Origin: Escherichia coli 042
GTDB taxonomy: Bacteria; Pseudomonadota; Gammaproteobacteria; Enterobacterales; Enterobacteriaceae
DNA: 64,000 bases
Reading direction: 5' to 3' (one strand)
NCBI RefSeq assembly: GCF_000027125.1
Contig: NC_017626.1
A program made the translations under genes and the position numbers. The notes below the pieces were generated by a model. The model saw only the letters and a list, made by a program, of their open reading frames with translations, was not told the origin of the DNA and ran no database searches. Shown one piece after another: positions 32,671 to 64,000 of this stretch; position 1 is the stretch's first letter, and the number at the start of each line of letters is the position of its first letter.

Positions 32671-32671
32671 C

Positions 32672-32944: not shown

Positions 32945-32946
32945 AA

Positions 32947-35059: not shown

Positions 35060-35168
<109 letters not shown>

Positions 35169-35298
35169 GGTGTTGCATGTAACTGGTTGTTTAATAACAA
35201 TTAATATTTTTATTATCGTTTAATTCGAACTTGTTAATCCCGCCGGTGATACGCTTCAGAACATCCTGATTAATGTCGCTACTTATATCGTTCACCCT

Positions 35299-36279: not shown

Positions 36280-36293
36280 CCCGGAAGTTAAAA

Positions 36294-36635
36294 ATGAGCA
36301 TTACCACAATCAACAGCACCATGCAGGCGCAAATCATGCAGGACGTGCAGCGGATGCAGGCCAACGCCCAGGCACCGGTGCTGCCCGCCATGACCTTCAG
36401 TTCCACCGACCCGGACGTTTCGTTTAACCGCATTATGTCCGGCGCGCTCGGTCACGTTGACCAGTTCCAGCAGGTGGCGGAGCAGCAGCAAACAGCTATC
36501 GACACGGGCAAAAGTGATGATTTAGCAGGTGCGATGATCGCCAGCCAGCAGGCGTCGCTCTCTTTCTCCGCGCTGGTGCAGGTGCGCAACAAAATCGCCA
36601 CCGGATTTAACGATCTGATGAGTATGTCGATCTAA
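36294..36635 (+). CDS. lfiE: Lateral flagellar MS-ring/rod junction protein FliE homolog
   Basis: 113-aa ORF, FliE size and character. Confidence 0.85.
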   Translation: MSITTINSTMQAQIMQDVQRMQANAQAPVLPAMTFSSTDPDVSFNRIMSGALGHVDQFQQVAEQQQTAIDTGKSDDLAGAMIASQQASLSFSALVQVRNKIATGFNDLMSMSI

Positions 36636-36639
36636 CCCT

Positions 36640-39274: not shown

Positions 39275-39277
39275 CCC

Positions 39278-41318: not shown

Positions 41319-41320
41319 CC

Positions 41321-41755
41321 ATGCGACAAATCATCGACACCCTCGCGCAGTTGCAGCGCCTGCGGGATAAATCGGTCAAAGACAAAACTGTCGAGCTGGC
41401 AAAGCAAAAACAGATCTGCGCGGGCTATGACAACAATATTAAGGCGTTAGGCTACCTGGTAGAGAAAACGTCTGCGGGCGCGGCGGCGTCGGTGGAATCG
41501 CTGAAAAACGTCAGCGGCTACAAAGGCACCCTGCGCAAGGTGATCGCCTGGCAGGAACAGGAAAAAACGCTGGCTAACATCAAAGCCACGCGAATGCAGA
41601 AAAACCTGACGGCGGCGGCGTGCGAAGAGAAAGTGGTGGCCCTGACGCTGGACGACAAACGCCGCGAGCAGCAGGAAAGCGCCACGGCGAAAGCGCAAAA
41701 AGCGGTGGATGACATTGCCGTTCAGTGCTGGCTACGGCATAAATTAGCGGAGTAG
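41321..41755 (+). CDS. lfiJ: Lateral flagellar export chaperone FliJ homolog
   Basis: 144-aa coiled-coil-type ORF following fliI. Confidence 0.8.
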   Translation: MRQIIDTLAQLQRLRDKSVKDKTVELAKQKQICAGYDNNIKALGYLVEKTSAGAAASVESLKNVSGYKGTLRKVIAWQEQEKTLANIKATRMQKNLTAAACEEKVVALTLDDKRREQQESATAKAQKAVDDIAVQCWLRHKLAE

Positions 41756-41757
41756 CG

Positions 41758-42162
41758 ATGAAAACGGTCATCACCTTCGGCACCTTTGATGTGTTTCACG
41801 TCGGTCATCTGCGCCTTTTACAACGCGCCCGCACGCTGGGCGAACGGTTGCTGGTCGGCGTATCGTCCGATGCCCTGAACATCGCCAAAAAGGGCAGGGC
41901 ACCGGTTTACCATCAGGATGACCGCATGGCGATCATCGCCGGGCTGGCGTGCGTGGAGGGCGTATTTCTGGAGGAATCGCTGGAGCAGAAAGCGGAGTAT
42001 TTGCGGGGGTACGGTGCGGATATTTTGGTGATGGGCGATGACTGGGCGGGGAAGTTTGACGATTTCTCGTGTGTCTGTGAGGTGGTCTATTTTCCCCGTA
42101 CGCCATCGGTATCGACGACGGAGATTATTGAGGTGATTAGGGGTAAATCAGCCACCTACTGA
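41758..42162 (+). CDS. Glycerol-3-phosphate cytidylyltransferase-like protein (TagD-like)
   Basis: 134-aa ORF with the cytidylyltransferase signature TFGTFDVFHVGHLRLL (HxGH) and C-terminal RTPSVSTTEII. Confidence 0.8.
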   Translation: MKTVITFGTFDVFHVGHLRLLQRARTLGERLLVGVSSDALNIAKKGRAPVYHQDDRMAIIAGLACVEGVFLEESLEQKAEYLRGYGADILVMGDDWAGKFDDFSCVCEVVYFPRTPSVSTTEIIEVIRGKSATY

Positions 42163-42217
42163 TTTAATTCCCGCGGTGAGAGAAGATGATGCCGTCTGCC
42201 GTTTGGCTATGTTAAAT

Positions 42218-42320
42218 ATGTTTAAAAAATCGCGTTTTTTCGACATATCCCCAAAACATGTCGATGGCATAAACGTATTCCAACGACATGTTTAAAAATC
42301 GCATTTTATCGACATATCCC
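42218..42320. repeat. Two direct copies of a ~33-bp hairpin-forming element between the convergent transferase genes
   Basis: ATGTTTAAAAAATCGCGTTTTTTCGACATATCCCC (about 42218-42252) and ATGTTTAAAAATCGCATTTTATCGACATATCCC (about 42288-42320); each has an A-run/T-run hairpin core. Confidence 0.6.
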
Positions 42321-51248: not shown

Positions 51249-52034
51249 ATGAACGCAGCACTATGGATCAGCAAAACCGGCCTCTCGGCGCAGGATGCTG
51301 AAATGAGCGCGATTGCCAACAACATCGCCAACGTTAACACCACCGGCTTCAAGCGTGACCGGGTGATGTTTCAGGATCTGTTCTACCAGACCCAGGAAGC
51401 GCCGGGCGCGATGCTCGATCAGAACAACATCATGCCGACCGGGCTGCAATTCGGTAGCGGCGTGCGCATTGTCGGCACCCAGAAAACCTTCACCGAAGGC
51501 AACGTCGAAACCACCGACAACGCCATGAATGTCGCCATTATGGGGCAGGGGTTTTTGCAGGTGCAAAAGGCCAACGGCGATATCGCCTATACCCGCGACG
51601 GCAACTTGCAGGTGAACGCCGACGGCGTACTGACCAACTCGCAGGGCTTGCCGTTGCAGCCGGAAATCGACGTTCCGGCGGGGGCGACCAACGTCGCGTT
51701 TGGCGAGGACGGCACGGTGACGGCGATCTTACCCGGCGACAGCGATGTGACCGAGTTAGGGCAACTGACACTGGTGAACTTCGCCAACCCAGCGGGGCTT
51801 TCTGCCGAGGGCGACAACCTGTATCTGGAAACCGCCGCCAGCGGTCAGCCGACCGAAGGTGTGCCGGGCGAAGATGGGCTTGGCACCTTGCAGGACAACG
51901 CGCTCGAAGGCTCGAACGTGGATATCGTCAACGAAATGGTGGCGATGATTACGGTGCAACGCGCGTACGAGATGAACGCCAAAATGGTGTCGGCAGCGGA
52001 CGATATGTTGCAGTACATCAGCCAGACGCTGTAA
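51249..52034 (+). CDS. lfgG: Distal rod protein FlgG homolog
   Basis: Start at MNAALWISKTGL (261 aa); the track ORF start lies inside the REP element. Confidence 0.9.
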   Translation: MNAALWISKTGLSAQDAEMSAIANNIANVNTTGFKRDRVMFQDLFYQTQEAPGAMLDQNNIMPTGLQFGSGVRIVGTQKTFTEGNVETTDNAMNVAIMGQGFLQVQKANGDIAYTRDGNLQVNADGVLTNSQGLPLQPEIDVPAGATNVAFGEDGTVTAILPGDSDVTELGQLTLVNFANPAGLSAEGDNLYLETAASGQPTEGVPGEDGLGTLQDNALEGSNVDIVNEMVAMITVQRAYEMNAKMVSAADDMLQYISQTL

Positions 52035-52048
52035 GGGAGTGGGGGCAA

Positions 52049-52172
52049 CGTGCGGTCTGATGCCCTCACCCCGGCCCTCTCCCACAGGGAGAGGGGGAAA
52101 AGCGGTGCACGATGTAACAACGCGCACAGGTCAGTCCCCTCTCCCTTGAGGGAGAGGGTTAGGGTGAGGGGG
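52049..52172. repeat. GC-rich composite palindromic repeat, copy 2
   Basis: CTGATGCCCTCACCCCGGCCCTCTCCCACAGGGAGAGGG ... CCCCTCTCCCTTGAGGGAGAGGGTTAGGGTGAGGGG. Confidence 0.75.
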
Positions 52173-52240
52173 AACAAACAGCTCCGCACCCACTAAACAA
52201 CCGGCCACCCCCGTGGCCTGCAACACTAAACAGGCAGAAC

Positions 52241-52906
52241 GTGAAAAATTATCTCTGGCTGGTGGCGCTGCTTCCACTCCTTAGCGGGTGTGAATCACAG
52301 GCCATTCTGGTCAAAAAAGACGACGCATACTTTGCGCCACCCAAAACCGAAGCGCCGCCTCCGGCAGACGGGCGTGCCGGGGGCGTGTTTGAAACTGGCT
52401 ACAACTGGTCGCTAACCGCCGACCGGCGGGCTTACCGCGTGGGCGATATCCTGACGGTGATCCTCGAAGAATCTACCCAGTCGAGCAAACAGGCGAAAAC
52501 CAACTTCGGCAAAAACAACACCGTCGATATCGGCGCGCCGACCATTTTTGGTCACACCAAAGATAAGCTTTCCGGCTCTATCGACGCCAACCGCGACTTT
52601 GACGGCAGCGCCACTTCCCAGCAGCAGAACAGCCTGCGCGGGGAGATCACCGTTTCCGTCCATGCGGTGCAGCCCAACGGCATTCTGGAAATTCGCGGCG
52701 AAAAATGGCTCACCCTCAACCAGGGTGATGAGTACATCCGCTTAAGCGGCCTGGTGCGCGCCGACGATATCCAGAACGACAACTCGGTTTCCTCCCAGCG
52801 GATCGCCGACGCCCGCATTTCCTATGCCGGACGCGGCGCGTTAAGCGACGCCAACGCCGCAGGCTGGCTGACGCGGTTGTTTAACCATCCTCTGTTCCCG
52901 ATTTAA
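52241..52906 (+). CDS. lfgH: L-ring lipoprotein FlgH homolog
   Basis: 221-aa ORF with lipobox LLSGC. Confidence 0.9.
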
Positions 52907-54021
52907 TGCCGGAGAGTGCAATGCAAAACTGGATAAAGGCCGCAGCGATCGCTGTAAGCCTGGCGCTGCCCGGCGTGGCGCTGGCGCAATCGCTGGAGTC
53001 GCTGGTCAACGTACAGGGCGTGCGTGAAAACCAACTGGTCGGCTACAGCCTGGTGGTCGGCCTCGACGGCACGGGTGATAAAAACCAGGTCAAATTCACC
53101 AACCAGACCATCACCAATATGCTGCGCCAGTTTGGCGTGCAGCTGCCGAATAAAATCGACCCGAAGGTGAAAAACGTCGCGGCGGTGGCGGTGAGCGCCA
53201 CGCTGCCGCCGATGTACTCGCGCGGGCAGACCATTGACGTCACCGTTTCGTCGATTGGCGATGCCAAAAGTATTCGCGGCGGCACTTTATTGCTTACGCA
53301 GCTGCACGGCGCAGATGGCGAAGTGTATGCCCTGGCGCAGGGAAGTGTGGTGGTGGGCGGGATGAATGCCACCGGGGCCAGCGGTTCCAGCGTGACGGTT
53401 AACACACCGACCGCCGGGTTAATTCCCAACGGCGCGACGGTGGAGCGTGAGATCCCCAGCGATTTTCAGATGGGCGACACCATCACCCTCAACCTGAAAC
53501 GCCCGTCGTTTAAAGATGCCAACAATATTGCGGCGGCGATCAACGCTTCGTTTGGCGGCATCGCCACCGCGCAGAGTTCCACCAACGTTACCGTGCGCGC
53601 GCCCACCAGCCCCGGCGCGCGGGTGGCGTTTATGTCGCAACTGGATGATGTACAGGTGCAGGTAGAGAAAATCCGCGCCCGCGTGGTGTTTAACTCGCGC
53701 ACTGGCACGGTGGTAATGGGCGATGGCGTTGCGCTGCACGCGGCGGCGGTGTCGCACGGCAGTTTGACCGTCTCGATTAACGAAACCAGCAACGTCAGCC
53801 AGCCGAATGCCTTTGCGGGCGGGCGCACGGCGGTAACGCCGCAGAGCAATATCGCGGTGAATCACGCCCGTCCGGGGGTGGTGAGTTTGCCGGAGTCGAG
53901 CAGCCTGAAAACGTTGGTTAATGCGTTGAACAGTTTAGGCGCGACGCCGGATGACATTATGTCGATTTTGCAGGCGCTGCATGAAGCGGGCGCGCTGGAT
54001 GCCGACCTGGAGGTGATCTGA
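52906..54021 (+). CDS. lfgI: P-ring protein FlgI homolog
   Basis: 371-aa ORF with signal peptide, FlgI-like. Confidence 0.9.
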
Positions 54022-54320
54022 TGAAAGTTAACGGCAGCGGCGGGATTGATGGCAGCGACGCATTAATGGGGCCGAAGGTTCAGGCCAATGATATCAAGCA
54101 GGCTGCGGAACAGTTTGAGGCGATTTTTTTACGCAACATGTTGAAAGAGATGCGTAAAACCAACGAGTTGTTCGATTCGAAAGATAACCCGTTTAACAGC
54201 GATTCGGTGCGCATGATGCAGGGGTTTTATGACGATGAGTTGTGTAACACCCTGGCGCAGCAGCACGGGATTGGGATTGCGGCGATGATTGTGAAGCAGT
54301 TGTCGCCGAAGCATAAATGA
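54021..54320 (+). CDS. lfgJ: Rod-binding FlgJ-like protein, single domain, no muramidase domain
   Basis: 99-aa ORF with the FlgJ N-terminal rod-binding motif (FEAIFLRNMLKEMRKT); too short for a peptidoglycan hydrolase domain. Confidence 0.75.
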   Translation: MKVNGSGGIDGSDALMGPKVQANDIKQAAEQFEAIFLRNMLKEMRKTNELFDSKDNPFNSDSVRMMQGFYDDELCNTLAQQHGIGIAAMIVKQLSPKHK

Positions 54321-54335
54321 GGCTCCGACGTTCGG

Positions 54336-54420
54336 TGCCTGATGCGACGCTGGCGCGTCTTATCAGGCCTACGAGTCGCCCGTATGTAGGCCGGATAAGG
54401 CGTTCACGCCGCATCCGGCA
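54336..54420. repeat. REP elements between lfgJ and lfgK
   Basis: TGCCTGATGCGACGCTGGCGCGTCTTATCAGGCCTAC ... GTAGGCCGGATAAGGCGTTCACGCCGCATCCGGCA. Confidence 0.8.
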
Positions 54421-54495
54421 CCCGGTTTACGGAACTTAAGAATCCCCAACCTAACGCCGCTTTTAACCGGCACGATTTACCGGTAAGGATCCAAC

Positions 54496-55872
54496 ATGGA
54501 CATGATTAACATCGGCTACAGCGGCGCATCAACCGCGCAGGTGGAGCTGAACGTCACGGCGCAAAACACCGCCAACGCCATGACCACGGGCTACACCCGT
54601 CAGGTGGCGGAGATCAGCACCATCGGTGCCAGCGGCGGTTCGCCGAACAGCGCCGGTAACGGCGTGCAGGTCGATAGCATTCGCCGCGTCTCCAACCAGT
54701 ATCAGGTGAATCAGGTGTGGTATGCCGCCAGCGATTACGGCTATTACAGCACCCAGCAAGGGTATCTCACGCAACTGGAAGCGGTACTGAGCGACGATAA
54801 CAGCAGCCTGAGCGGCGGCTTCGATAACTTTTTCGCCGCCCTTAACGAAGCGACCACCAGCCCCGATGATTCCGCCCTGCGCGAGCAGGTGATCAGCGAA
54901 GCCGGGGCGCTGTCGCTGCGTATCGACAACACGCTGGATTACATCGACTCGCAAAGCACGGAAATCATCAGCCAGCAGCAGGCGATGGTGTCGCAAATTA
55001 ATACGCTCACCAGCGGTATCGCCAGCTATAACCAGCAAATCGCTCAGGCCGAAGCCAACGGCGATAACGCCTCCGCGCTGTACGACGCCCGCGACCAGAT
55101 GGTGGAAGAACTCAGCGGGATGATGGATGTGCAGGTCAATATCGACGACCAGGGCAACTACAACGTTACCCTGAAAAACGGTCAACCGCTGGTGAGCGGG
55201 CAGCAAAGCTCGACCATCGCGCTGGAAACCAACGCCGACGGCACGCCGACCATGTCGCTGACCTTCGCCGGAACCACCTCGACGATGACCACCGACACTG
55301 GAGGTTCATTAGGCGCACTGTTTGATTATCAAAACGACGTGCTGACGCCGCTGACCGACACCATCAACAGCATGGCGTCGCAGTTTGCCGATGCGGTCAA
55401 CAATCAACTGGCGCAGGGCTACGATCTCAACGGCAACCCCGGCGAGCCGCTGTTTATTTATGACGCCAGCAACGCCGATGGCCCGCTGACCGTCAACCCG
55501 GATATCACCGCCGATGAGCTGGCGTTTTCCAGTTCACCGGACGAAAGCGGTAACAGCGACAACTTACAGGCGCTGATCAATATCTCCACCGAACCGCTGG
55601 AGATAGCCAACCTCGGCAGCGTGACGGTCGGGCAGGCGTGCTCGTCAATCATCAGCAATATCGGCATTTACAGCCAGCAAAACCAGACGGAAGTCGATGC
55701 CGCGTCCAATGTCTATTCCGCAGCGCAAAACCAGCAGAGCAGCGTCAGCGGCGTCAGCATGGACGAAGAGGCGGTTAACCTGATCACCTATCAACAAATT
55801 TATGAAGCCAATCTGAAAGTCATTTCCGCCGGGGCCGAGATTTTCGATTCGGTGCTGGAAATGTGCAGCTAA
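54496..55872 (+). CDS. lfgK: Hook-associated protein 1 FlgK homolog
   Basis: 458-aa ORF with conserved axial-protein N- and C-termini. Confidence 0.85.
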   Translation: MDMINIGYSGASTAQVELNVTAQNTANAMTTGYTRQVAEISTIGASGGSPNSAGNGVQVDSIRRVSNQYQVNQVWYAASDYGYYSTQQGYLTQLEAVLSDDNSSLSGGFDNFFAALNEATTSPDDSALREQVISEAGALSLRIDNTLDYIDSQSTEIISQQQAMVSQINTLTSGIASYNQQIAQAEANGDNASALYDARDQMVEELSGMMDVQVNIDDQGNYNVTLKNGQPLVSGQQSSTIALETNADGTPTMSLTFAGTTSTMTTDTGGSLGALFDYQNDVLTPLTDTINSMASQFADAVNNQLAQGYDLNGNPGEPLFIYDASNADGPLTVNPDITADELAFSSSPDESGNSDNLQALINISTEPLEIANLGSVTVGQACSSIISNIGIYSQQNQTEVDAASNVYSAAQNQQSSVSGVSMDEEAVNLITYQQIYEANLKVISAGAEIFDSVLEMCS

Positions 55873-55886
55873 GCGGGAGCGCGAAA

Positions 55887-56816
55887 ATGCGAGTAACCAC
55901 CCAACAAACCTACGTCTCGATGACGCAAAGTTTTAATAATCTCTCCGGCGATCTGGCGCATGTGGTCGAGCAGATGGCAACCGGCAAGGAAATTTTGCAG
56001 CCGTCGGATGACCCGATCGCCGCCACGCGCATCACCCAGTTGAACCGCCAACAGTCGGCGATTGAGCAGTATCAGAGCAATATCGACTCCGCGTCGGCGG
56101 GGTTAAGTCAGCAGGAATCAATCCTTGATGGCGTCAACAACAGCCTGCTGGCGGTGCGCGACGACCTGCTGGAAGCGGCGAATGGCACCAATACCGCCGA
56201 TTCGCTCGCAAGTCTCGGGCAGGATATTGAGTCGCTCACCGAATCAATGGTCGTGGCGCTGAACTATCAGGACGAAGACGGGCATTACGTGTTTGGCGGT
56301 ACCATCAACGATCAGCCGCCGATTGTGGCGGTGGACGATGACGGCGATGGCGTGACCGACAGCTACAGCTATCAGGGCAACAGCGACCACCGCCAGACCA
56401 CGGTGTCGAACGGCGTGGAAGTGGATACCAACGTGGCGGTGAGCGATTTCTTCGGCAGCAATTTAGATGTGCTCAACACACTGAATACCCTGTCGCAGGA
56501 GTTGCAAGACCCAAACGTTGACCCGGCCGATCCGCAGGTGCAGAGCGATATTCAGAACGCCGTTGATGTGGTGGACACCGCCTCGGATAACCTCAACGCC
56601 TCGATTGCGTCGCTCGGCGAGACGCAGAACACCATGTCGATGTTGAGCGATGCGCAGACCGATATCTCTACCTCTAATGATGAGCTGATTGGTTCATTAC
56701 AGGATCTCGATTACGGCCCGGCGTCGATCACCTTTACCGGACTGGAAGTAGCAATGGAAGCTACCCTCAAGACTTACTCGAAAGTGAGTGAGTTGAATTT
56801 GTTCAGCGTTCTCTAA
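55887..56816 (+). CDS. lfgL: Hook-associated protein 3 FlgL homolog
   Basis: Start at MRVTTQQTYVSM; flagellin-like N-terminus. Confidence 0.8.
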   Translation: MRVTTQQTYVSMTQSFNNLSGDLAHVVEQMATGKEILQPSDDPIAATRITQLNRQQSAIEQYQSNIDSASAGLSQQESILDGVNNSLLAVRDDLLEAANGTNTADSLASLGQDIESLTESMVVALNYQDEDGHYVFGGTINDQPPIVAVDDDGDGVTDSYSYQGNSDHRQTTVSNGVEVDTNVAVSDFFGSNLDVLNTLNTLSQELQDPNVDPADPQVQSDIQNAVDVVDTASDNLNASIASLGETQNTMSMLSDAQTDISTSNDELIGSLQDLDYGPASITFTGLEVAMEATLKTYSKVSELNLFSVL

Positions 56817-56832
56817 CTCTTTCAGGAACAGT

Positions 56833-57810
56833 ATGCAGGTCGGACTTACATCTTCGTCACTCGCCACCGGCGGCGCGCATAGCGCTGCGGTATCGTCGTC
56901 AACCGTTGCGCCCACTCAGGCGGTGCGGCAAAAACTCCCGGCGACGGCGAGTGAATATCCGGCCTCGCCGCTGATTACCACTCGCCCGCAGCGTTACAGC
57001 GTGCAGCTTAACGACCAGCTCACCACGTTGCAGCAGGCGGATCACTATCTCGGGCAACTGGAGCAGCAGTTGCTCGATTATCGTCACAGCCAGCGCAAAG
57101 GCGGGCAGGCGCAGAGTTCGGCGCTGATGCAGATGCTGGACAAACGCACCGCGCTTTCCGGCGGTGCGGTGGACCGCCAGTTGCAGCCAGTGTTGCAGGG
57201 GGAAGCGCGGGTGACTTTTCACTCGCCGGATCTGGCGAATCTGGTACACAATCCCACGCCGGGAACGCGCATGTTCAGCGTCTCTGACGGGCGGCAGACT
57301 CAGCTTTCGGCGGTGATGCTGTCTGAGGATGACAGCGCTGGGCAGTACCAGACGCGGCTGACCAACGCCCTGCGCCGCGTGGGCGTGCAGATGCATCAAA
57401 ACGCCGATGGTATAAGTTTCTCCACCACTGAAAAACAGTGGCCCAACATTGAAAGCACCCTAAGCGTGCGCACCGATGGTGATAAATCAGCGTTTATGCC
57501 ACTAAAAACCTTTGCCGAACCGTCGCAGGCGGACCGCTTAGTGCAAAGCCTGCAACAGGGCGGAGCGGGGATTTCTCAGACGTTAGAAAGCATTAATCAG
57601 CAGCGTGTGCAGATGGCGGTACAGCAGGAAAAGGCGCGGCAGTTGATCGACGGCATGTCGCGCTTCCCGCAAACGGAAAGCGCCGTGCAGGCGTCGGAAA
57701 ATCTCGGCGGCGTGCTGGATAGCGCCAATCATAACTATCAGGTTTTATTGCAGGCGGTGAACGGTCAGGCGCGAATTTCCAGCCAGACGGTGAGGAGTTT
57801 ATTGGGTTAG
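56833..57810 (+). CDS. Hypothetical flagellar-cluster protein (possibly the Flag-2 gene named lafW; assignment from memory, unverified)
   Basis: 325-aa Gln/Ala/Ser-rich ORF directly after flgL; no recognisable catalytic motif. Confidence 0.5.
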   Translation: MQVGLTSSSLATGGAHSAAVSSSTVAPTQAVRQKLPATASEYPASPLITTRPQRYSVQLNDQLTTLQQADHYLGQLEQQLLDYRHSQRKGGQAQSSALMQMLDKRTALSGGAVDRQLQPVLQGEARVTFHSPDLANLVHNPTPGTRMFSVSDGRQTQLSAVMLSEDDSAGQYQTRLTNALRRVGVQMHQNADGISFSTTEKQWPNIESTLSVRTDGDKSAFMPLKTFAEPSQADRLVQSLQQGGAGISQTLESINQQRVQMAVQQEKARQLIDGMSRFPQTESAVQASENLGGVLDSANHNYQVLLQAVNGQARISSQTVRSLLG

Positions 57811-57831
57811 GGTTATTGTCATTGTTGCTTT

Positions 57832-57872
57832 TATAGCTATTAAGCTATAGTTTATCTATAGCATAAAAGCTA
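57832..57872 (+). promoter_or_regulatory. Palindromic operator-like repeats upstream of the toxin gene
   Basis: TATAGCTAT / AAGCTATAG / TCTATAGCA / AAGCTAT: four ATAGC/GCTAT half-sites in about 40 bp immediately 5' of the toxin ATG. Confidence 0.45.
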
Positions 57873-57882
57873 TGAGGGACCG

Positions 57883-58227
57883 ATGATGTGGGACGTCGAG
57901 ACAACGGAGACTTTCGACAACTGGTTTGATGCCCAGACTGTTGCGCTGAAAGAAGATTTACTTGCTGCAATGCTGATTCTTGCTGAGTATGGCCCACAGT
58001 TGGGCAGACCCTTTGCGGATACGGTTAATGATTCACAGTTTTCAAATATGAAAGAATTACGCGTCCAACATCAGGGAAACCCGGTACGTGCTTTTTTTGC
58101 TTTCGATCCTGCGCGCCGTGGCATTGTATTATGTGCGGGTGATAAAACGGGGTTAAATGAGAAAAAGTTTTATCGCGATATGATCAAGCTCGCTGATTCT
58201 GAATACCGTAAGCATCTGAAAAAGTAA
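57883..58227 (+). CDS. RelE/ParE-superfamily toxin (HigB-like, toxin-first arrangement)
   Basis: 114-aa ORF (MMWDVETTETFDNWFD...GPQLGRPFADT...KELRVQHQGNPVRAFFAFDPARRGIVLCAGDKTG) matching the addiction-module killer protein family. Confidence 0.7.
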   Translation: MMWDVETTETFDNWFDAQTVALKEDLLAAMLILAEYGPQLGRPFADTVNDSQFSNMKELRVQHQGNPVRAFFAFDPARRGIVLCAGDKTGLNEKKFYRDMIKLADSEYRKHLKK

Positions 58228-58236
58228 GGAACGATA

Positions 58237-58536
58237 ATGGCTACTCTAAAAGAACTGATGGCAAAGCAAAGCCCTGAAAGCCAGGCGCGTATTGCGGCAA
58301 AAGTTGAGGAAATGCGCCAGACCATCGCCTTGCATCAGCTGAGAGAAGAACTCAATATTTCGCAAACGGAAATGGCGGCAGCGATGGGCATTAAGCAACC
58401 GACTCTTGCAAAAATGGAGCAGGCAGATAACGATCCTCGGTTGTCTACGCTAAAACGCTATGTTGCGGCTTTAGGTGGGGAATTGAGTATCGACGTTAAA
58501 CTGCCGAATGGTAAGAGAATTGCATTTCAGATTTAA
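58237..58536 (+). CDS. HTH (XRE-type) antitoxin, HigA-like
   Basis: 99-aa ORF 10 nt after the toxin gene; HTH region ELNISQTEMAAAMGIKQPTLAKME. Confidence 0.7.
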   Translation: MATLKELMAKQSPESQARIAAKVEEMRQTIALHQLREELNISQTEMAAAMGIKQPTLAKMEQADNDPRLSTLKRYVAALGGELSIDVKLPNGKRIAFQI

Positions 58537-58593
58537 TTTTGGGGTGCATTTTATGAACCGGATTAGATAAAACGGTATCTAATCCGGTAAACA

Positions 58594-59487
58594 TCAGCAT
58601 TTCTGCACAGTATTTAACAACTTCTCTAAATTCTGATACATCGCGCTATTAATATCGCTATTCTGCCAGCTATCCACATTAAAAGTTAATTGCCAGCTAC
58701 CGTTGCACTGGTTGCGCAGAACAATATCACTCTCCAGTCGGTTACGAACATATTTATAATAGGTTGTCATTGTCATATTATGCGCTGACAATAAATTATC
58801 GAGTTTGTCTTTTCCTGGTGCGAGGGTTTGTGACAGTAACGGTACGGAATTATTTTCCTTTCCAGAACTAAGATGAAATATTTTTATTCTTGGACTGTTA
58901 ATTGACTCTTTTACCAGTTGCGGGGCGTCAGGTGTACTTTTCAAGTGTGAATACCCCACGGTTGAGCCAACCAATATAACAGCTGCGGCCAACGCTAACC
59001 CCATCAGTCCTTTATGTTTTTTTCTAACAGGCACATACGGTGTTGTCGAAGATATCTCTTCTGGGGCTGTATCCTGTATCTGGTCGGTAATAATCAGCGC
59101 TTCTGCAGGCGATGACTCCGGCAAAGACACATACTCTTTATTGCATAAGTAACCTTTCTTCGGAATTGTTTTAATAATGTTCTGTTGTTTGCCATCATCG
59201 TCGATAGCAACGCGCAACGCATGGATCGCCGTCGGCAGGCTGTTTCCGCCGACAATACGGTTCTTCCATACTTCGGCACATAAATAAGATCGCGATAAAA
59301 CCACATCGGCATTTTTTGCTAATGTTTCCAGCAAAATAAAATGGTATTCGCCGAGACGACGTGTTTCACCCGTTTCGCAATGTATTAAGGCATTAAGCGA
59401 CGGGTCCATCCGCCAGTTGTTGATAATAATACTCATAGTTGAGTTTACCTTAGCAAGGGATAAATGTTTCCTGATAGTGCTTTGCAT
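58594..59487 (-). CDS. lafZ: ToxR/CadC-like single-pass membrane transcriptional regulator
   Basis: N-terminal OmpR-type winged-helix region, central TM helix GLMGLALAAAVILVGSTVGY, periplasmic C-terminus; AT-rich; alternative start MSIIINNW at 59436. Confidence 0.6.
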   Translation of the reverse strand: MQSTIRKHLSLAKVNSTMSIIINNWRMDPSLNALIHCETGETRRLGEYHFILLETLAKNADVVLSRSYLCAEVWKNRIVGGNSLPTAIHALRVAIDDDGKQQNIIKTIPKKGYLCNKEYVSLPESSPAEALIITDQIQDTAPEEISSTTPYVPVRKKHKGLMGLALAAAVILVGSTVGYSHLKSTPDAPQLVKESINSPRIKIFHLSSGKENNSVPLLSQTLAPGKDKLDNLLSAHNMTMTTYYKYVRNRLESDIVLRNQCNGSWQLTFNVDSWQNSDINSAMYQNLEKLLNTVQKC

Positions 59488-59921
59488 AAAGCACAGTCTT
59501 ATACGTCCCTGAGAAGATGATTTTTCTGCGTGATAATTAATATTTTATGGTGATAAGATTATTCTTAATCACTATATAGCGTGGAAATGTAACGAAATGA
59601 CAGGACAGGTACAATAGCCAAATGTGTACTATTTGCAACGCAATGTAAATTTTGGCATCAGTACATTGAGAACAAAACGCGATAATTGATGACAATCTTA
59701 ACTATATCAAGCGTTTGATAAAGACATATTTTGATACCTGGCCATGTGGCAGATATTGCTAATAATCTTTTTATCTGAATTTAAACTCTGCTTTTTTTAG
59801 CTAAAAGTGGCATCGGATAATACGTGGCGAAAAAATTATAACGGCGATTTTAAGTTTGCTCCTGAGGTGTCGTTTTTACAGGGTATCGAAACGAAAACGA
59901 TTAATCCCAAGGAGCAGTATC

Positions 59922-60836
59922 ATGTTATCTATTAACACCAATAACGCCTCAATGGCCGCCGTTAATGCAATCAGCAAAAGCAGCTCTTCTCTGTCTACAT
60001 CTATGGAACGCCTGGCGACAGGTAACCGGATTAACTCTTCTGCCGATGACGCCGCAGGCAAACAAATTGCTAACCGTCTGACAGCACAGTCCAGCGGTAT
60101 GGGTGTTGCGCTGAGCAACATCAATGATGCCACCGCGATGCTGCAAACCGCTGACAGCATGTTCGACGAAATGTCTGACGTGCTGGGTCGTATGAAAGAC
60201 CTGTCAACTCAGGCAGCGAACGGCACCTACAGCGACGACGACCTGCAGGCGATGCAGGACGAATACGACGAACTGGGCCAGCAGATGTCTGACATGCTGC
60301 AAAACACCACTTACGGCGGCACCAACCTGTTCGGTGTTTCCGGTACCAGCAACACCGGTACTGACGGTCTGTTCCAGAGCGCGGTAACTTTCCAGGTGGG
60401 CGCGGAATCTTCCGACACCATGACCGTGAATATTTCAAGCCAGCTGAATACCCTGGTGACGGATCTTTCTGCAATCAGCAACTCCTTTAGTGCGGATCAG
60501 GCTGACACCACTGGCACCGCAGGCGTTTCTGGCGGTACTGAGCTGACTGCGTCTGGCTCGGCTAACCAGATGATCACCAGCATCTCTACCGCGATGGATG
60601 ACGTGTCTCAGATCCAGTCCAAGCTGGGTGCCTCTATCAACCGTCTGAACGACACTGCCAACAACCTGACCAGTATGCAAGACAACACCGAAGTCGCTAT
60701 CGGTAACATCATGGATACCGACTACGCGACGGAAGCGTCCAATATGACCAAACAGCAAGTGCTGATGCAGACTGGCATCACCATGCTGAAACAGTCCAAC
60801 AGCATGTCCAGCATGGTTTCCAGCCTGCTGCAGTAA
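59922..60836 (+). CDS. lafA: Lateral flagellin
   Basis: Start at MLSINTNNASMAAVNAI with RBS AAGGAG; conserved flagellin N- and C-terminal domains, short central region (304 aa). Confidence 0.9.
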   Translation: MLSINTNNASMAAVNAISKSSSSLSTSMERLATGNRINSSADDAAGKQIANRLTAQSSGMGVALSNINDATAMLQTADSMFDEMSDVLGRMKDLSTQAANGTYSDDDLQAMQDEYDELGQQMSDMLQNTTYGGTNLFGVSGTSNTGTDGLFQSAVTFQVGAESSDTMTVNISSQLNTLVTDLSAISNSFSADQADTTGTAGVSGGTELTASGSANQMITSISTAMDDVSQIQSKLGASINRLNDTANNLTSMQDNTEVAIGNIMDTDYATEASNMTKQQVLMQTGITMLKQSNSMSSMVSSLLQ

Positions 60837-60880
60837 TGGCGGACTTGCCGATGCGGCGTAAACGCCTTATCCGGCCACGA

Positions 60881-60906
60881 ACAACACCGCCTGCGGGCGG
60901 TGTTGT
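60881..60906 (+). terminator. Rho-independent terminator after lafA, adjacent to a single REP unit
   Basis: Stem ACAACACCGCC / GGCGGTGTTGT with loop TGCG followed by GCTTTC. Confidence 0.55.
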
Positions 60907-60993
60907 GCTTTCAGCGGCAGGCTTTTTTCCGCCAGAACGGAAACGTCATTTCCGCCTGTTTTTCAATCTATTGATTATTCACATAAAAAATAT

Positions 60994-61009
60994 TGGCACG
61001 CCTTTTGCC
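60994..61009 (+). promoter_or_regulatory. Sigma-54 (-24/-12) promoter upstream of lafB
   Basis: TGGCAC-GCCTT-TTGCC, consensus spacing, about 32 nt upstream of the lafB ATG. Confidence 0.75.
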
Positions 61010-61040
61010 ATTAACCTGACATCGTTACCCGGAGTCATCA

Positions 61041-62357
61041 ATGATTAACCCAAGAACCATTGCGCAAGAAATTGCTTATGCGGATGTCGCCACCCAGGCG
61101 GCAAATTTGCAGGAGAAGCAGACCGAGCTGGACGCTGAAAGCAGCGGCCTGGACTCGCTCAGCTCGGCGTTAAGCGATTTCCAGAGCGCCGTTGACGCGC
61201 TGAACAGCGATACCGACGGCCCGGTGACTTTTGCCGCCACCAGCAATAATGACTCGGCGACCGTTTCCGCTAACTCGCAGGCACAGGCGGGAAGCTACTC
61301 GTTTTTCGTTGAGCAACTGGCGCAGGGGCAGCAAACCACGTTCAGTATGGGCGACGACGCCTTTTCCGCTACCGGTACTTTTGAACTGACGATGGGCGAC
61401 AGCACCATGGATATCGATCTGTCGGCGGCAGATCAGAACGGTGACGGCGACGGTTTTATCGACGCCAGCGAACTGGTGAACGCGATTAACGACTCCGATG
61501 ATAATCCAGGCGTTTCAGCGGCGTTGGTGAAAACCGACGGCACCACCACCATTATGCTCACCTCCGATAGCACCGGGGCGCAGAGCGCGTTTTCGGTGAG
61601 CGTAACGGGGCATGATGCCAGCAACGATAGCACCAGCGCGCCCGTTGCCACGGTTGTTTCCTCAGCCCAGGACGCGATTATTCATCTCGGTAGCGCCACG
61701 GGCCCGGCGATCACCAACAGCAGCAATACGTTTGATGATGTGATCCCCGGCGTCACCATGACTTTTACCGAAGTCAGCGATTCTGACAGCGACCTCACCA
61801 CTTTTAACATCAGCGAAGATTCCAGCTCCAGCCAGGAGAAAGTACAGACTTTTGTCGATGCCTATAACACCTTGATTGATACGGTTGATTCGCTAACCAC
61901 TCACGGTGATGACAGTACCAGCGCCGGGGTATTTGCAGGCGACGCCGGACTCAGTTCACTGGCGAACCAGCTCGATGACATCGCCCATGCCAGCTACAAC
62001 GGCGTGTCGATTGTTGACTATGGCATCACCCTCGATTCTCACGGCCACTTACAGATTGACTCCGACCAGTTCAACGACGAAATGGCGAAAAATCCTGACG
62101 GTCTGACCTCTATTTTCGTTGGCGACAACAGCATGGTAGCGCAGATGGACGACCTGATTAACACCTACACGGACTCCAGCAACGGCATCATCACCCTGCG
62201 CCAGCAGAACATTGACGATCAGATGAGCAAAATTCAGGACGAAGGCGATCAGCTTACTGATACCTATAACGCCAACTACGACCGTTATCTCGAGGAGTAC
62301 ACCAACACGCTGGTCGAGGTGTACACCATGAAAGCCAGCATGGCGGCATTCGCGTAA
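61041..62357 (+). CDS. lafB: Filament cap protein FliD homolog
   Basis: 438-aa ORF with FliD-like N- and C-terminal coiled-coil segments. Confidence 0.85.
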   Translation: MINPRTIAQEIAYADVATQAANLQEKQTELDAESSGLDSLSSALSDFQSAVDALNSDTDGPVTFAATSNNDSATVSANSQAQAGSYSFFVEQLAQGQQTTFSMGDDAFSATGTFELTMGDSTMDIDLSAADQNGDGDGFIDASELVNAINDSDDNPGVSAALVKTDGTTTIMLTSDSTGAQSAFSVSVTGHDASNDSTSAPVATVVSSAQDAIIHLGSATGPAITNSSNTFDDVIPGVTMTFTEVSDSDSDLTTFNISEDSSSSQEKVQTFVDAYNTLIDTVDSLTTHGDDSTSAGVFAGDAGLSSLANQLDDIAHASYNGVSIVDYGITLDSHGHLQIDSDQFNDEMAKNPDGLTSIFVGDNSMVAQMDDLINTYTDSSNGIITLRQQNIDDQMSKIQDEGDQLTDTYNANYDRYLEEYTNTLVEVYTMKASMAAFA

Positions 62358-62379
62358 CTCAGAAGGAATATCCCTAAAG

Positions 62380-62772
62380 ATGTACCAAGTACAGGACGGC
62401 TATTCGCAATATAAAGAGATCGATCTCGCGGCGCGTACCGCGGCGGCATCGCCTCTGGAACTGGTGCTGGTGCTGTTTTCTGGCCTGATGGACGAGCTGG
62501 AACGCGCCAAAAGCCATATTGAAGGGCGGCGTTTCGAGAAGAAAGCCCAGAGCATCAATAAATGCATCGACATTCTCAATGCGCTCACCAGTTCGCTGGA
62601 ATTTGAAACCGGCGGCGAGCTGGTGGTCAACCTTTCGCGCCTCTATGACCACTGCGTTTACCGATTGTATGAAGCCAGCGGCGAACTGTCGGCAGAGAAA
62701 ATCGATGAAGTGATGCTGATCTTAAGCAACCTGCGCGAAGGCTGGGAAGGGCTTTCGGGCAAGCTGGGTTAA
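62380..62772 (+). CDS. lafC: Flagellin chaperone FliS homolog
   Basis: 130-aa ORF with FliS character. Confidence 0.85.
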   Translation: MYQVQDGYSQYKEIDLAARTAAASPLELVLVLFSGLMDELERAKSHIEGRRFEKKAQSINKCIDILNALTSSLEFETGGELVVNLSRLYDHCVYRLYEASGELSAEKIDEVMLILSNLREGWEGLSGKLG

Positions 62773-62776
62773 GACG

Positions 62777-63088
62777 ATGGAAAAACAACGCAGGCAACTT
62801 TTCGTACTGGTCGAGGCGATGAATGAAGCCCTCGACAAGCAACGCTGGCGACGCCTTCCGGCCCTGCATCAGCAGGTGATGCGCCAGTTTCACGATTATG
62901 CGACGGCGGAAACCGATGCGACGCAGTTGTGTGCGGTGAAGGCGCAACTGTACGGCGCGTTTAATGCCCTGATTAAACGACGCGAGCAGCGCGCAGAAGT
63001 GTTGAAAGCGCGTATGGAGCAGCATCAACGGCATCAGGAAGGTGTGCTGGCCTACTCAATTGTTAATTTACTTTCGGAGAAGTCATGA
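62777..63088 (+). CDS. lafD: FliT-like chaperone
   Basis: 103-aa helical ORF following fliS. Confidence 0.65.
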   Translation: MEKQRRQLFVLVEAMNEALDKQRWRRLPALHQQVMRQFHDYATAETDATQLCAVKAQLYGAFNALIKRREQRAEVLKARMEQHQRHQEGVLAYSIVNLLSEKS

Positions 63089-64000
63089 ATCCGGCATTGC
63101 TTGCCACGCTCGGAACGCTTGCGGAAACGGCGTCGCTGAAAGCGGATATTTTACCGCCGATGAGCGGTAAAAACGCGCCCGCGTTTACCCTGCCGAAAAT
63201 GGCGGTCGCGGCGGTGGCGGAGCGCGTTCATAGCGCTAAAACCAGTCAGCAACAGGCGACGCGCCCGCAGGAGAACGATCCGGTGGCGATGCAGGCGCTA
63301 ATGGCGCTGTTACTTCCGCAACCTGCCGCGACGCATCAGGACACGCCGCAGCCGCGAAACGTCGCAACATCGCCGGTTATTCAGCAATTGACGAAAGCGG
63401 TGGTGCAAAACGCGCCGCAACGCCCGACACAACAGCAGGAACTCACGACATTGCCGCCACAGTTGCAGGAACTGATCGGTCAGTTGCCGCAGGCGAAACC
63501 CGAACAGCAGGCCAGACTGGCAATTTACGCCAGTGAAGATTTACATGCCATTGCGCCGACGCAGCCGCGCGTCTCAACACAGCCCGCTCGCCCGAAACCT
63601 GAACTAACCCGTGTGACCGCGCGCCCACAGGTCGAGCGTAAAACGGAAAAAGTGCCGGACAGCGAACCGGTTATTGCGCGTGCGGTGTTGCAGGTTAAGA
63701 CGCCGGAGCTGGTCAGCCAGCATCAGGAGATTGTCGCCAAACCAGCCACGCTTTCAATGGACGAACTGGGCGAAAAACTGACGACGCTGTTGAAAGATCA
63801 GATCCACTTTCAGCTCAACAAACAACAGCAGATCTCCACCATCCGTCTCGATCCACCGTCGCTTGGCAAGCTCGAGATCGTCGTACAACTCGATAACGGC
63901 AAACTGATGGTGCACATCGGCGCGAACCAAAGTGAAGTTTGCCGCGCGTTACAACAGTTTAGCGACGATCTCCGCCAGCATCTGACGGCGCAAAATTTTA
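63085..64000 (+). CDS. lafE: Hook-length control protein FliK homolog (3' end beyond window)
   Basis: ORF starting ATG 63085 (MNPALLATLGTLAE...), Pro/Gln-rich linker then conserved FliK C-terminal region; no stop before the window end, so absent from the ORF track. Confidence 0.75.
   Translation, partial: MNPALLATLGTLAETASLKADILPPMSGKNAPAFTLPKMAVAAVAERVHSAKTSQQQATRPQENDPVAMQALMALLLPQPAATHQDTPQPRNVATSPVIQQLTKAVVQNAPQRPTQQQELTTLPPQLQELIGQLPQAKPEQQARLAIYASEDLHAIAPTQPRVSTQPARPKPELTRVTARPQVERKTEKVPDSEPVIARAVLQVKTPELVSQHQEIVAKPATLSMDELGEKLTTLLKDQIHFQLNKQQQISTIRLDPPSLGKLEIVVQLDNGKLMVHIGANQSEVCRALQQFSDDLRQHLTAQNF

What the first reader, a model, noticed from the sequence alone, without database searches (positions are those of the whole stretch)
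54021..54320. FlgJ homolog lacks a muramidase domain
The 99-aa ORF contains only the rod-binding N-terminal module. A peptidoglycan-cleaving activity needed for rod penetration must therefore be supplied by a separate enzyme not obviously encoded in this window.
Basis: partly seen in the sequence, partly recalled or inferred. Interest (0 to 1): 0.3.

Follow-up and report, generated by a model that had tools for sequence, protein, structure and literature searches.

The report
Flag-2 rod-cap gene without hydrolase domain
The 99-codon gene is lfgJ of the well-described second (Flag-2, lateral-type) flagellar locus of E. coli: it really encodes only the rod-capping half of FlgJ and no cell-wall-cutting domain, a known type of arrangement, so the finding is correct but ordinary.

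Summary
The ORF at 54021-54320 (+) is real. It is lfgJ of the E. coli Flag-2 locus, which RefSeq names 'rod-binding protein'. It has one Pfam domain, Rod-binding (PF10135, E=3e-14), and matches only the N-terminal third of the full FlgJ model.

It is not a truncation artefact:
- No frame of the 64-kb window resembles a glucosaminidase or SLT domain.
- Only 175 bp, filled by two REP elements, separate it from lfgK.
- The 99-105 aa form recurs in 25 enterobacterial species, and the region lies in about 1,244 complete E. coli genomes.

No peptidoglycan glycan-cleaving enzyme is encoded in the locus. The conserved unknowns are a flagellin-like axial protein (LafW) and a FliB-like methylase relative.

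The syntenic lateral cluster of Plesiomonas has a 328-aa two-domain FlgJ and branches as sister to the single-domain clade. This points to one domain loss.

The most likely mechanism is that LfgJ only caps the rod and an enzyme encoded elsewhere opens the wall. That enzyme would be a housekeeping lytic transglycosylase or, in E. coli, the Flag-1 FlgJ.

In this window lfgC is frameshifted, so this copy of Flag-2 probably builds no rod at all. Single-domain FlgJ is a known class, so interest is low.

The parts
54021..54320 (+). lfgJ: 99-aa single-domain FlgJ homologue (rod cap/scaffold), stop codon included
   Evidence: ORF list. Pfam PF10135 only. RefSeq name 'rod-binding protein'. 34 % identity to residues 30-102 of E. 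coli Flag-1 FlgJ and 37 % to residues 25-105 of Plesiomonas lateral FlgJ.
54144..54299 (+). Rod-binding domain (residues 42-93)
   Evidence: The most conserved block, QFEAIFLRNMLKEMRK...SKDNP...GIGIA, holds 25 invariant columns over 16 sequences down to 49 % identity.
54021..54083 (+). Variable N-terminus (residues 1-21) with no hydrophobic signal peptide, predicted disordered
   Evidence: Alignment A1 and the AF2 model (pLDDT <50 for residues 1-17). This is consistent with, but does not prove, export by the flagellar type III system.
54009..54013 (+). GGAGG ribosome-binding site for lfgJ, inside the end of lfgI
   Evidence: Read directly from the sequence.
52906..54021 (+). lfgI (P-ring protein); its stop overlaps the lfgJ start by 1 nt
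   Evidence: PF02119, E=7e-134.
54337..54419 (.). Two REP elements in inverted orientation (54337-54372 and 54386-54419) filling most of the 175-bp lfgJ-lfgK spacer
   Evidence: 8 REP copies in the window against 0 expected. Inverted arms. They cause the ~38 places per genome.
54496..55872 (+). lfgK (hook-associated protein 1), the next gene
47970..48403 (+). lfgC (proximal rod), disrupted by a net +2-bp insertion near 48014
   Evidence: Alignment to 118UI. Translation stops at codon 22, against an intact 143 aa in 118UI.
56833..57810 (+). lafW: conserved Flag-2 protein without a family assignment, predicted to be a flagellin/HAP-like axial protein and not an enzyme
   Evidence: No Pfam or NCBIfam hit. 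AF2 pLDDT 66. Foldseek PDB top hits are flagellins, E=6.5e-7.
44956..45924 (-). FliB_C-like protein (relative of flagellin lysine-N-methylase) in variable region 1
   Evidence: NF038110, E=2e-11. PF27117 on the orthologues.
28682..64000 (.). Flag-2 locus from lfhA to lafE (cut by the window end; lafF, lafS, lafT and lafU lie beyond it)
   Evidence: Annotation transfer from NZ_CP032515.1.

Best explanation
The ORF is lfgJ of the E. coli Flag-2 (lateral-type) flagellar locus, a single-domain FlgJ. Shown here: it consists of a variable, probably disordered N-terminus plus the helical Rod-binding domain and nothing else. It is translationally coupled to lfgI within the lfgB-L operon. It evolves under purifying selection. 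Inferred from Salmonella, Rhodobacter and Borrelia: it is exported by the Flag-2 type III apparatus as an early substrate and caps and scaffolds the growing rod (LfgB/C/F/G), but cannot cut peptidoglycan itself. The hole for the distal rod is then made by an enzyme encoded outside the locus. The most likely source is a Sec-exported housekeeping lytic transglycosylase acting at, or recruited to, the rod tip. In E. coli, the glucosaminidase of the Flag-1 FlgJ is an alternative. The hydrolase domain was probably lost once, on the stem of the enterobacterial Flag-2 clade after it split from the Plesiomonas lateral system. In the strain sequenced here the question is moot, because lfgC is frameshifted.
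For: Identity and domain content.

Not an artefact: no hydrolase-like sequence in any frame; 175-bp spacer occupied by REPs; 104 homologues of 55-134 aa carrying only PF10135; 25 species with a 99-105 aa gene in the conserved lfgH-I-J-K...lafW synteny; lfgJ-lfgK spacers of -1 to 369 bp in five further loci.

Selection: dN is 0.09-0.16 against Citrobacter and Scandinavium-like loci where dS is saturated, and dN/dS is 0.22-0.26 where it can be computed.

No lytic enzyme in the locus; no hit within +-10 kb in the 25 loci; none in the Tatumella, Citrobacter, Scandinavium-like and Pseudescherichia loci. LafW is flagellin-like and also present in Plesiomonas.

An enzyme other than Flag-1 FlgJ must suffice somewhere: Tatumella LfgJ is 124 aa with Rod-binding only. 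Tatumella, Budvicia and Pragia are reported to lack flag-1 yet to be flagellated and motile (PMC6993521).

Domain loss: the Plesiomonas lateral cluster is syntenic and has a 328-aa Rod-binding+Glucosaminidase FlgJ. It is sister to the single-domain clade in both the FlgI and FlgG NJ trees, with two-domain polar systems as outgroups.

Precedents: SltF-FlgJ in R. sphaeroides (PMC7277832); BB0259-FlgJ in Borrelia (PMC8517470); MltE used by the E. coli T6SS (PMC5841429).
Against: No experiment or tool result links any particular enzyme to Flag-2. Flag-2 was not expressed in E. coli EC958 under laboratory conditions (PMC4637896), so function in E. coli is itself unproven. At 99 aa, LfgJ is shorter than the 151-residue N-terminal fragment reported as the minimal functional unit of Salmonella FlgJ (Hirano 2001 as cited in PMC6913195). 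The 112-aa Liberibacter FlgJ failed to complement Agrobacterium (same paper). The NJ trees have no support values. The AF2 model of LfgJ is of low confidence (pLDDT 55).
Confidence: 0.6

Rival explanations
1. The two-domain Flag-1 FlgJ of the same cell supplies the glucosaminidase activity in trans. It would either be secreted through the Flag-2 apparatus or act from neighbouring Flag-1 basal bodies.
For: Flag-1 flgJ (313 aa, Rod-binding + Glucosaminidase) is present in 5,425 of 5,426 complete E. coli genomes, hence in every Flag-2 carrier. The two N-domains are homologous (34 % identity).
Against: Tatumella, Budvicia and Pragia carry Flag-2 with a single-domain LfgJ, reportedly lack flag-1, and are motile, so this cannot be the general solution. 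At only 34 % identity, cross-recognition by Flag-2 rod proteins is uncertain.
Confidence: 0.12
2. No dedicated or recruited enzyme is involved. The rod passes through gaps that ordinary peptidoglycan turnover opens, at lower efficiency.
For: From my own recollection of Hirano et al. 2001, not checked here: Salmonella producing only the N-terminal half of FlgJ retains weak motility. No lytic gene is linked to 25+ Flag-2 loci.
Against: Established knowledge is that the distal rod is much wider than the natural peptidoglycan mesh, and that the FlgJ enzymatic activity is described as essential for rod formation in Salmonella (PMC6403190). In all single-domain systems examined experimentally a specific lytic transglycosylase was needed.
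Confidence: 0.15
3. lfgJ, and Flag-2 as a whole, is a decaying relic in E. coli. The short gene would be a non-functional remnant, so no enzyme is needed.
For: lfgC is frameshifted in this window. Flag-2 is deleted in most E. coli: it is present in about 1,244-1,279 of 5,426 genomes. LafA was not expressed in EC958.
Against: The short form is not E. coli-specific. It is intact and conserved across genera, with 25 invariant columns and dN well below dS. It is also the form found in organisms reported to move with Flag-2 only.
Confidence: 0.08
4. A peptidoglycan-lytic enzyme of unrecognised fold is hidden among the Flag-2 proteins of unknown function (LafW, LafD, the FliB_C-like protein).
For: These proteins have no Pfam assignment above threshold.
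Against: LafW folds like a flagellin or hook-associated protein and has a homologue in Plesiomonas, which keeps the two-domain FlgJ. The 321-aa protein is a relative of the cytoplasmic methylase FliB. LafD is 103 aa and occupies the FliT position. None has a signal peptide or any similarity to lytic domains. Lengths were compared directly only for FlgB-FlgK, using Flag-1 sizes and Flag-2 sizes: FlgJ shows the large deficit and LfgK is also clearly shorter. Agreement of the other core proteins with their Flag-1 counterparts rests on my recollection of K-12 protein sizes.
Confidence: 0.04
5. A sequencing or assembly error truncates a normal two-domain FlgJ.
For: None found.
Against: (no coding remnant, 175-bp REP-filled spacer). 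(the same length in hundreds of independent assemblies and in 25 species).
Confidence: 0.01

Closest known systems
FlgJ / SltF of Rhodobacter sphaeroides Fla1 (PMC7277832)
   Same: The FlgJ lacks the muramidase domain and acts only as rod scaffold. Wall cleavage is delegated to a separate, Sec-exported enzyme.
   Different: sltF lies inside the flagellar flgG operon. No SLT-type or any other lytic gene is present in the E. coli Flag-2 locus or within +-10 kb of lfgJ in 25 related loci.
Single-domain FlgJ / LTase BB0259 of Borrelia burgdorferi (PMC8517470)
   Same: A single-domain FlgJ whose partner lytic transglycosylase is encoded elsewhere in the genome and binds FlgJ.
   Different: Spirochaete periplasmic flagella. 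There FlgJ is needed for the hook and filament rather than for the rod. No partner is known for Flag-2.
E. coli / Salmonella Flag-1 FlgJ (313-316 aa)
   Same: Homologous N-terminal Rod-binding domain (34 % identity). Same position between the P-ring gene and the HAP1 gene.
   Different: Flag-1 FlgJ carries a linker and a C-terminal GH73 glucosaminidase domain (residues 160-295). LfgJ ends at the position equivalent to about residue 102.
Lateral FlgJ (FlgJ_L, 328 aa) of Plesiomonas shigelloides (PMC4481668; L089)
   Same: Orthologous, fully syntenic lateral/Flag-2-type cluster in the same bacterial order. Sister lineage in the FlgI and FlgG trees.
   Different: It keeps the glucosaminidase domain. 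The E. coli, Citrobacter and Tatumella clade lacks it.
Recruitment of housekeeping MltE by the E. coli type VI secretion system (PMC5841429)
   Same: A trans-envelope machine of E. coli that encodes no wall-cutting enzyme of its own and uses a housekeeping lytic transglycosylase.
   Different: A different machine. It is cited only as a precedent, with no evidence for MltE at Flag-2.

Membership tests
FlgJ rod-binding (rod cap) family, Pfam PF10135 | Rod-binding domain above the Pfam gathering score | tested here: met
   53.7 bits against a cut-off of 25.1, E=3e-14, full profile 1-51.
FlgJ rod-binding (rod cap) family, Pfam PF10135 | Gene located between the P-ring gene (flgI) and the HAP1 gene (flgK) of a flagellar operon | tested here: met
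   lfgI-lfgJ-lfgK order in the window and in 30 related loci.
FlgJ rod-binding (rod cap) family, Pfam PF10135 | Export by the flagellar type III system and binding to rod proteins | not testable with these tools
   Only indirect evidence: no Sec signal peptide, and a variable, disordered N-terminus.
Two-domain 'flagellar assembly peptidoglycan hydrolase FlgJ' (NCBIfam TIGR02541) | Whole-protein score above the curated cut-off | tested here: not met
   68.1 bits against a cut-off of 193. Only profile positions 20-91 of 294 are matched.
Two-domain 'flagellar assembly peptidoglycan hydrolase FlgJ' (NCBIfam TIGR02541) | C-terminal GH73 glucosaminidase domain (PF01832) | tested here: not met
   Absent from the protein and from all six frames of the window. 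Present in the Flag-1 FlgJ and Plesiomonas lateral FlgJ controls.
Single-domain FlgJ with a locus-encoded dedicated lytic transglycosylase (SltF type) | FlgJ without an enzymatic domain | tested here: met
Single-domain FlgJ with a locus-encoded dedicated lytic transglycosylase (SltF type) | Signal-peptide-bearing SLT-domain gene inside the flagellar gene cluster | tested here: not met
   No SLT hit in the window (best E=1.1). None in 25 related loci at E<=1. None in the PGAP annotation of the whole locus.
Single-domain FlgJ with a locus-encoded dedicated lytic transglycosylase (SltF type) | Physical interaction between FlgJ and the lytic enzyme | not testable with these tools
   Needs pull-down or two-hybrid experiments.
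Enterobacterial Flag-2 locus (Ren et al. 2005; De Maayer et al. 2020, PMC6993521) | Three clusters, lfhAB-lfiRQPNM-lafK-lfiEFGHIJ / lfgNMABCDEFGHIJKL / lafWZABCDEFSTU, inserted between rayT and dinB | tested here: met
   Gene order-9 matches the published description. The window ends inside lafE.

The most novel reading that the evidence does not exclude
The glucosaminidase domain was lost once at the base of the enterobacterial Flag-2 clade. This left a minimal 99-124 aa FlgJ, shorter than the 151-residue fragment considered the minimal functional unit in Salmonella. In organisms such as Tatumella it would still support flagellum assembly by directly recruiting one specific housekeeping lytic transglycosylase through an unknown interface. 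That would give a genetically tractable gamma-proteobacterial model of how a trans-envelope machine borrows a housekeeping autolysin.
Probability: 0.3. Interest if true: 0.35.

Novelty: already known. Interest (0 to 1): 0.15.

Why it matters
It matters little beyond correct annotation. The gene should be called a rod-binding or rod-cap protein, not a 'peptidoglycan hydrolase', as some sources and older tables label LfgJ. The useful by-product is comparative. Within one bacterial order, orthologous lateral-type flagellar loci exist with a two-domain FlgJ (Plesiomonas) and a single-domain FlgJ (Escherichia, Citrobacter, Tatumella and others). E. coli also carries both forms of FlgJ in one genome. 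That makes the open question of which autolysin opens the wall for a flagellum lacking its own enzyme addressable with enterobacterial genetics. It is the same question already answered in Rhodobacter and Borrelia, and Flag-2 has not been shown to be expressed in E. coli.

Tried and rejected
1. A longer reading frame or a frameshifted hydrolase remnant. Rejected by the six-frame HMM and tblastn searches and by the 175-bp REP-filled spacer.

2. A hidden lytic enzyme among the unknowns.
- LafW was modelled and fold-searched and is flagellin-like.
- The 321-aa protein is FliB_C-like.
- A PDB sequence search with the 321-aa protein gave nothing useful.

3. A small 150-170 aa signal-peptide ORF next to lafZ in Citrobacter and other loci was considered as a possible EtgA/IagB-sized transglycosylase. 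I rejected it: it has no Pfam hit, is only 17-24 % conserved, has no ES motif, overlaps lafZ like a ToxS-type partner, and is absent from E. coli.

4. L056 (Paludibacterium) and L051 seemed to show a 'split' FlgJ, with a separate glucosaminidase gene 7 kb away. L056 is an error-rich assembly, its short FlgJ contains internal stops, and the glucosaminidase belongs to an adjacent second flg cluster. It was not used.

5. The best-scoring two-domain relative, P0110, turned out to be the polar FlgJ of Plesiomonas, not the lateral one. The lateral one is P0195/P0287.

6. A PDB profile search with the LfgJ alignment found no solved homologue of the N-domain.

7. The AF2 model of LfgJ has low confidence (pLDDT 55), so no fold search was run on it.

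8. The consensus scan found no sigma-70-type promoter or intrinsic terminator around lfgJ.

9. dS against other genera is saturated, so only rough dN/dS values are available.

10. Ren et al. 2005, Garcia-Ramos et al. 2018 and Stewart & McCarter 2003 are not held in the library. I could not check whether they already comment on the short LfgJ, nor confirm the length of V. parahaemolyticus LfgJ.

11. yafL (C40 peptidase), dpaA and ivy, just upstream of Flag-2, are core genes also present next to the deleted locus. They are not glycan-cleaving enzymes and were not considered partners.

Full report
WHAT THE WINDOW IS. Megablast places the window on the E. coli chromosome. It is 99.9 % identical to strain 118UI (NZ_CP032515.1) over most of its length. 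Positions 1 to about 20,000 are a type VI secretion island with IS remnants. Next come the core genes yafV-ivy-fadE-lpcA-yafJ-dpaA-yafL-rayT. From 28,682 to the end lies the Flag-2 (lateral-type) flagellar locus, lfhA through lafE. The gene order matches the published description of Flag-2: lfhAB-lfiRQPNM-lafK-lfiEFGHIJ, a variable region, lfgNMABCDEFGHIJKL, then lafWZABCDEFSTU (PMC6993521).

THE OBSERVATION. A 99-codon ORF lies exactly at 54021-54320 (+). Its ATG overlaps the TGA of lfgI by one base, and a GGAGG lies 7 nt upstream. Pfam finds only PF10135 Rod-binding, at residues 42-93 (E=3e-14). The NCBIfam model of full-length FlgJ (TIGR02541) is matched only over positions 20-91 of 294 and far below its cut-off. 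RefSeq calls the identical protein 'rod-binding protein'.

IS IT A TRUNCATION ARTEFACT? No.
- I built HMMs from the C-terminal glucosaminidase domains of 18 two-domain FlgJ relatives and from the SLT domains of two FlgJ-SLT fusions. I searched all stop-to-stop segments of the six frames of the window. The best E-values were 4.6 and 1.1, which is noise.
- Twenty two-domain FlgJ proteins align by tblastn only through their N-terminal ~70-90 residues, at 54045-54314.
- The spacer to lfgK is 175 bp and is filled by two inverted REP elements, 54337-54372 and 54386-54419. There is no room for a ~150-residue domain.
- All 104 close homologues in the 5.8-billion-protein set are 55-134 aa and carry only PF10135.
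- In 25 enterobacterial species from a scan of 100,044 genomes the gene is 99-105 aa. The genera include Escherichia, Pseudocitrobacter, Citrobacter, Phytobacter, Leminorella, 'Enterobacter' and Pseudescherichia. It always sits in the lfgH-lfgI-lfgJ-lfgK...lafW synteny.
- In five further loci the lfgJ-lfgK spacer ranges from -1 to 369 bp.
- The gene is under constraint. There are 25 invariant columns in an alignment reaching 49 % identity. dN is 0.09-0.16 where dS is saturated, and dN/dS is 0.22-0.26 where it can be computed. This is somewhat more relaxed than lfgG/H/I/K, at 0.02-0.13.

IS A WALL-CUTTING ENZYME ENCODED NEARBY? Not detectably.
- PGAP names no lytic transglycosylase, muramidase or glucosaminidase anywhere in the locus, including the four genes beyond the window end.
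- Pfam scans of 20 Flag-2 proteins show only the expected flagellar domains.
- Flag-1 sizes and Flag-2 sizes can be compared for FlgB-FlgK. FlgJ shows by far the largest deficit (313 against 99 aa), and LfgK is also clearly shorter. For the remaining core proteins the match in length rests on my recollection of K-12 sizes.
- The 321-aa 'hypothetical' protein (44956-45924, -) is a relative of the flagellin lysine-N-methylase FliB (NF038110, E=2e-11; PF27117 on orthologues).
- LafW (56833-57810) has no family. AlphaFold2 gives a model with a confident core (pLDDT 70-90 over residues ~60-270, mean 66). Its best PDB matches are flagellins (E=6.5e-7, probability 1.0). So it is an axial or hook-associated-type protein, as the literature guessed, not a lysozyme-like enzyme. 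It also has a homologue at the same position in Plesiomonas, so it was not gained when the domain was lost.
- Within +-10 kb of lfgJ, none of the 25 related loci has a glucosaminidase or SLT hit at E<=1. The precomputed Pfam lists for the Tatumella, Citrobacter, Scandinavium-like, Pseudescherichia and one metagenomic locus show none either.
- The only peptidoglycan-related genes in the window are yafL (C40 peptidase), dpaA and ivy. These are core genes outside Flag-2, and none cleaves glycan strands.

EVOLUTIONARY CONTEXT.
- A full HMMER search of 1.84 billion representatives gave 5,071 relatives. Of the 141 best outside the close family, 55 carry a glucosaminidase domain, 6 carry an SLT domain, and 32 are 140 aa or shorter (Pfam check of examples). 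Single-domain FlgJ is therefore common.
- The literature says two-domain FlgJ is typical of beta- and gamma-proteobacteria, and single-domain forms are typical of alpha-, delta- and epsilon-proteobacteria and spirochaetes (PMC8517470; PMC6913195).
- E. coli itself carries the archetypal two-domain Flag-1 FlgJ (313 aa) in 5,425 of 5,426 complete genomes. LfgJ is 34 % identical to its residues 30-102.
- The lateral flagellar cluster of Plesiomonas shigelloides (L089) is fully syntenic with Flag-2. It encodes a 328-aa Rod-binding + Glucosaminidase FlgJ (table in PMC4481668).
- In neighbour-joining trees of both FlgI and FlgG it is the sister of the single-domain Flag-2 clade, which includes E. 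coli, Citrobacter, Leminorella, Pseudescherichia and Tatumella. Two-domain polar systems (Plesiomonas polar, Glaciecola, Colwellia) are the next outgroup.
- The parsimonious reading is a single loss of the hydrolase domain on the Flag-2 stem. This is an inference: the trees lack support values, and Vibrio and Aeromonas were not sampled.

MECHANISM.
- Shown: LfgJ is a small protein predicted (at low model confidence) to be all-helical, with helices at 22-52, 61-69, 72-81 and 86-94. Its N-terminus is variable and disordered, and it has no signal peptide.
- Inferred from Salmonella, Rhodobacter and Borrelia work: it is exported by the Flag-2 type III apparatus and caps the growing rod.
- Because it cannot cut peptidoglycan, the opening must come from elsewhere. 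I favour a Sec-exported housekeeping lytic transglycosylase.
- One reason is that Tatumella, Budvicia and Pragia are reported to lack flag-1 yet to be flagellated (PMC6993521). Tatumella's LfgJ is also single-domain, with no lytic gene in the 20 kb examined.
- Precedents exist in Borrelia (BB0259, encoded elsewhere in the genome) and in the E. coli T6SS, which uses MltE (PMC5841429).
- In E. coli the Flag-1 FlgJ is a possible alternative source.
- Passive use of turnover gaps cannot be excluded.

CAVEATS SPECIFIC TO THIS WINDOW.
- lfgC (47970-48403) carries a net +2-bp insertion relative to 118UI and terminates at codon 22.
- None of 1,279 complete genomes shares this lesion.
- An lfgC frameshift was reported for strain 042 and taken to inactivate Flag-2 (PMC6993521; PMC4637896).
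- Flag-2 was not expressed in ST131 strain EC958 under laboratory conditions.
- So in this strain the rod that would need a hole is probably never built.

VERDICT. The thing itself is a named gene of a described locus, annotated as a rod-binding protein, and belongs to a described class (single-domain FlgJ). I rate it already known and of low interest. The only mildly new points are the inferred single domain loss relative to the Plesiomonas lateral system and the absence of any locus-linked lytic enzyme across the Flag-2 clade.

Noticed in passing
window 47970-48403 (+), lesion near 48014: lfgC (proximal rod protein) has a net +2-bp insertion plus adjacent substitutions relative to E. coli 118UI, giving a stop at codon 22. 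None of 1,279 complete E. coli genomes shares it (best 96.7 % over 151 nt). An lfgC frameshift is the lesion reported for strain 042. It could also be a sequencing error.
   Followed up: partly
window 31205-49105 versus 49113-64000: The left two-thirds of Flag-2 is only about 97 % identical to strain 118UI. Region 44000-49100 is at most 96.4 % identical to any complete E. coli genome. The right part and the upstream flank are 98.9-99.9 % identical. This is a mosaic, consistent with recombination within the locus.
   Followed up: partly
window 24891-28594, 35131-35166, 54337-54419; also about 51075-51250 and 52040-52240: REP/BIME elements are scattered inside and around Flag-2. They include a tandem array of four 101-bp-spaced REPs between rayT and lfhA (28256-28594) and a pair in the lfgJ-lfgK spacer. 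ORFs reading 'MRRERLIRPT...' are REP translations. The REPs at about 51075-51250 and 52040-52240 were inferred from such ORFs and were not among the pattern matches.
   Followed up: partly
window 28393 (junction); L002 27103-28316: Strain 118UI has an ISEc31 (IS3 family) insertion between rayT and lfhA that is absent from the window.
   Followed up: no
window 57883-58536 (+); L004 14436-14948, L006 13749-14228, L007 13787-14242, L008 13715-14188 (all -): Between lafW and lafZ, E. coli carries a RelE/ParE-like toxin gene plus an HTH gene. Citrobacter, Scandinavium-like, Pseudescherichia and a metagenomic Flag-2 locus instead have a poorly conserved 150-170 aa signal-peptide ORF. That ORF overlaps the end of lafZ (a ToxR-like regulator) and may be a ToxS-like partner.
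   Followed up: partly
window 44956-45924 (-): A 321-aa 'hypothetical' protein in variable region 1 matches only the C-terminal part (profile positions 106-363) of the flagellin lysine-N-methylase FliB model, below its cut-off. It lies next to an 846-aa GT2/glycerophosphotransferase-like protein and a cytidylyltransferase. Together these look like a flagellin-modification module.
   Followed up: partly
window 56833-57810 (+): LafW has no sequence family but is predicted to fold like a flagellin or hook-associated protein, with disordered termini, long terminal helices and a central alpha/beta insert. A distant homologue (26 % identity) occupies the same slot in Plesiomonas, where a published table lists a 349-aa protein as Maf-5.
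   Followed up: partly
P0143, P0152, P0160, P0184, P0198, P0233; L070 2801-3748: Some FlgJ relatives fuse the Rod-binding domain to an SLT lytic-transglycosylase domain instead of the GH73 glucosaminidase (Pfam confirmed for P0143). This is a third architecture of the same functional pair.
   Followed up: partly
L003 6910-9701: In the Plesiomonas polar flagellar cluster the gene order is flgG-flgI-flgJ-flgH, with the L-ring gene after flgJ, unlike the usual flgH-flgI-flgJ.
   Followed up: no
window about 10516-14025 (L002 9217-12726): In the T6SS island a DUF4123 adaptor gene is followed by 523-aa and 320-aa proteins with no Pfam match. These are likely an orphan effector/immunity pair downstream of a truncated vgrG.
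   Followed up: no
L025 (record title 'Chryseobacterium sp. 18061'): A complete enterobacterial-type Flag-2 segment (LfgJ 80 % identical, LfgI 79 %) sits in an assembly labelled Chryseobacterium. It is nearly the same as the neighbouring 'Citrobacter sp. 18056' record, so it is probably a mislabelled or contaminated assembly.
   Followed up: no
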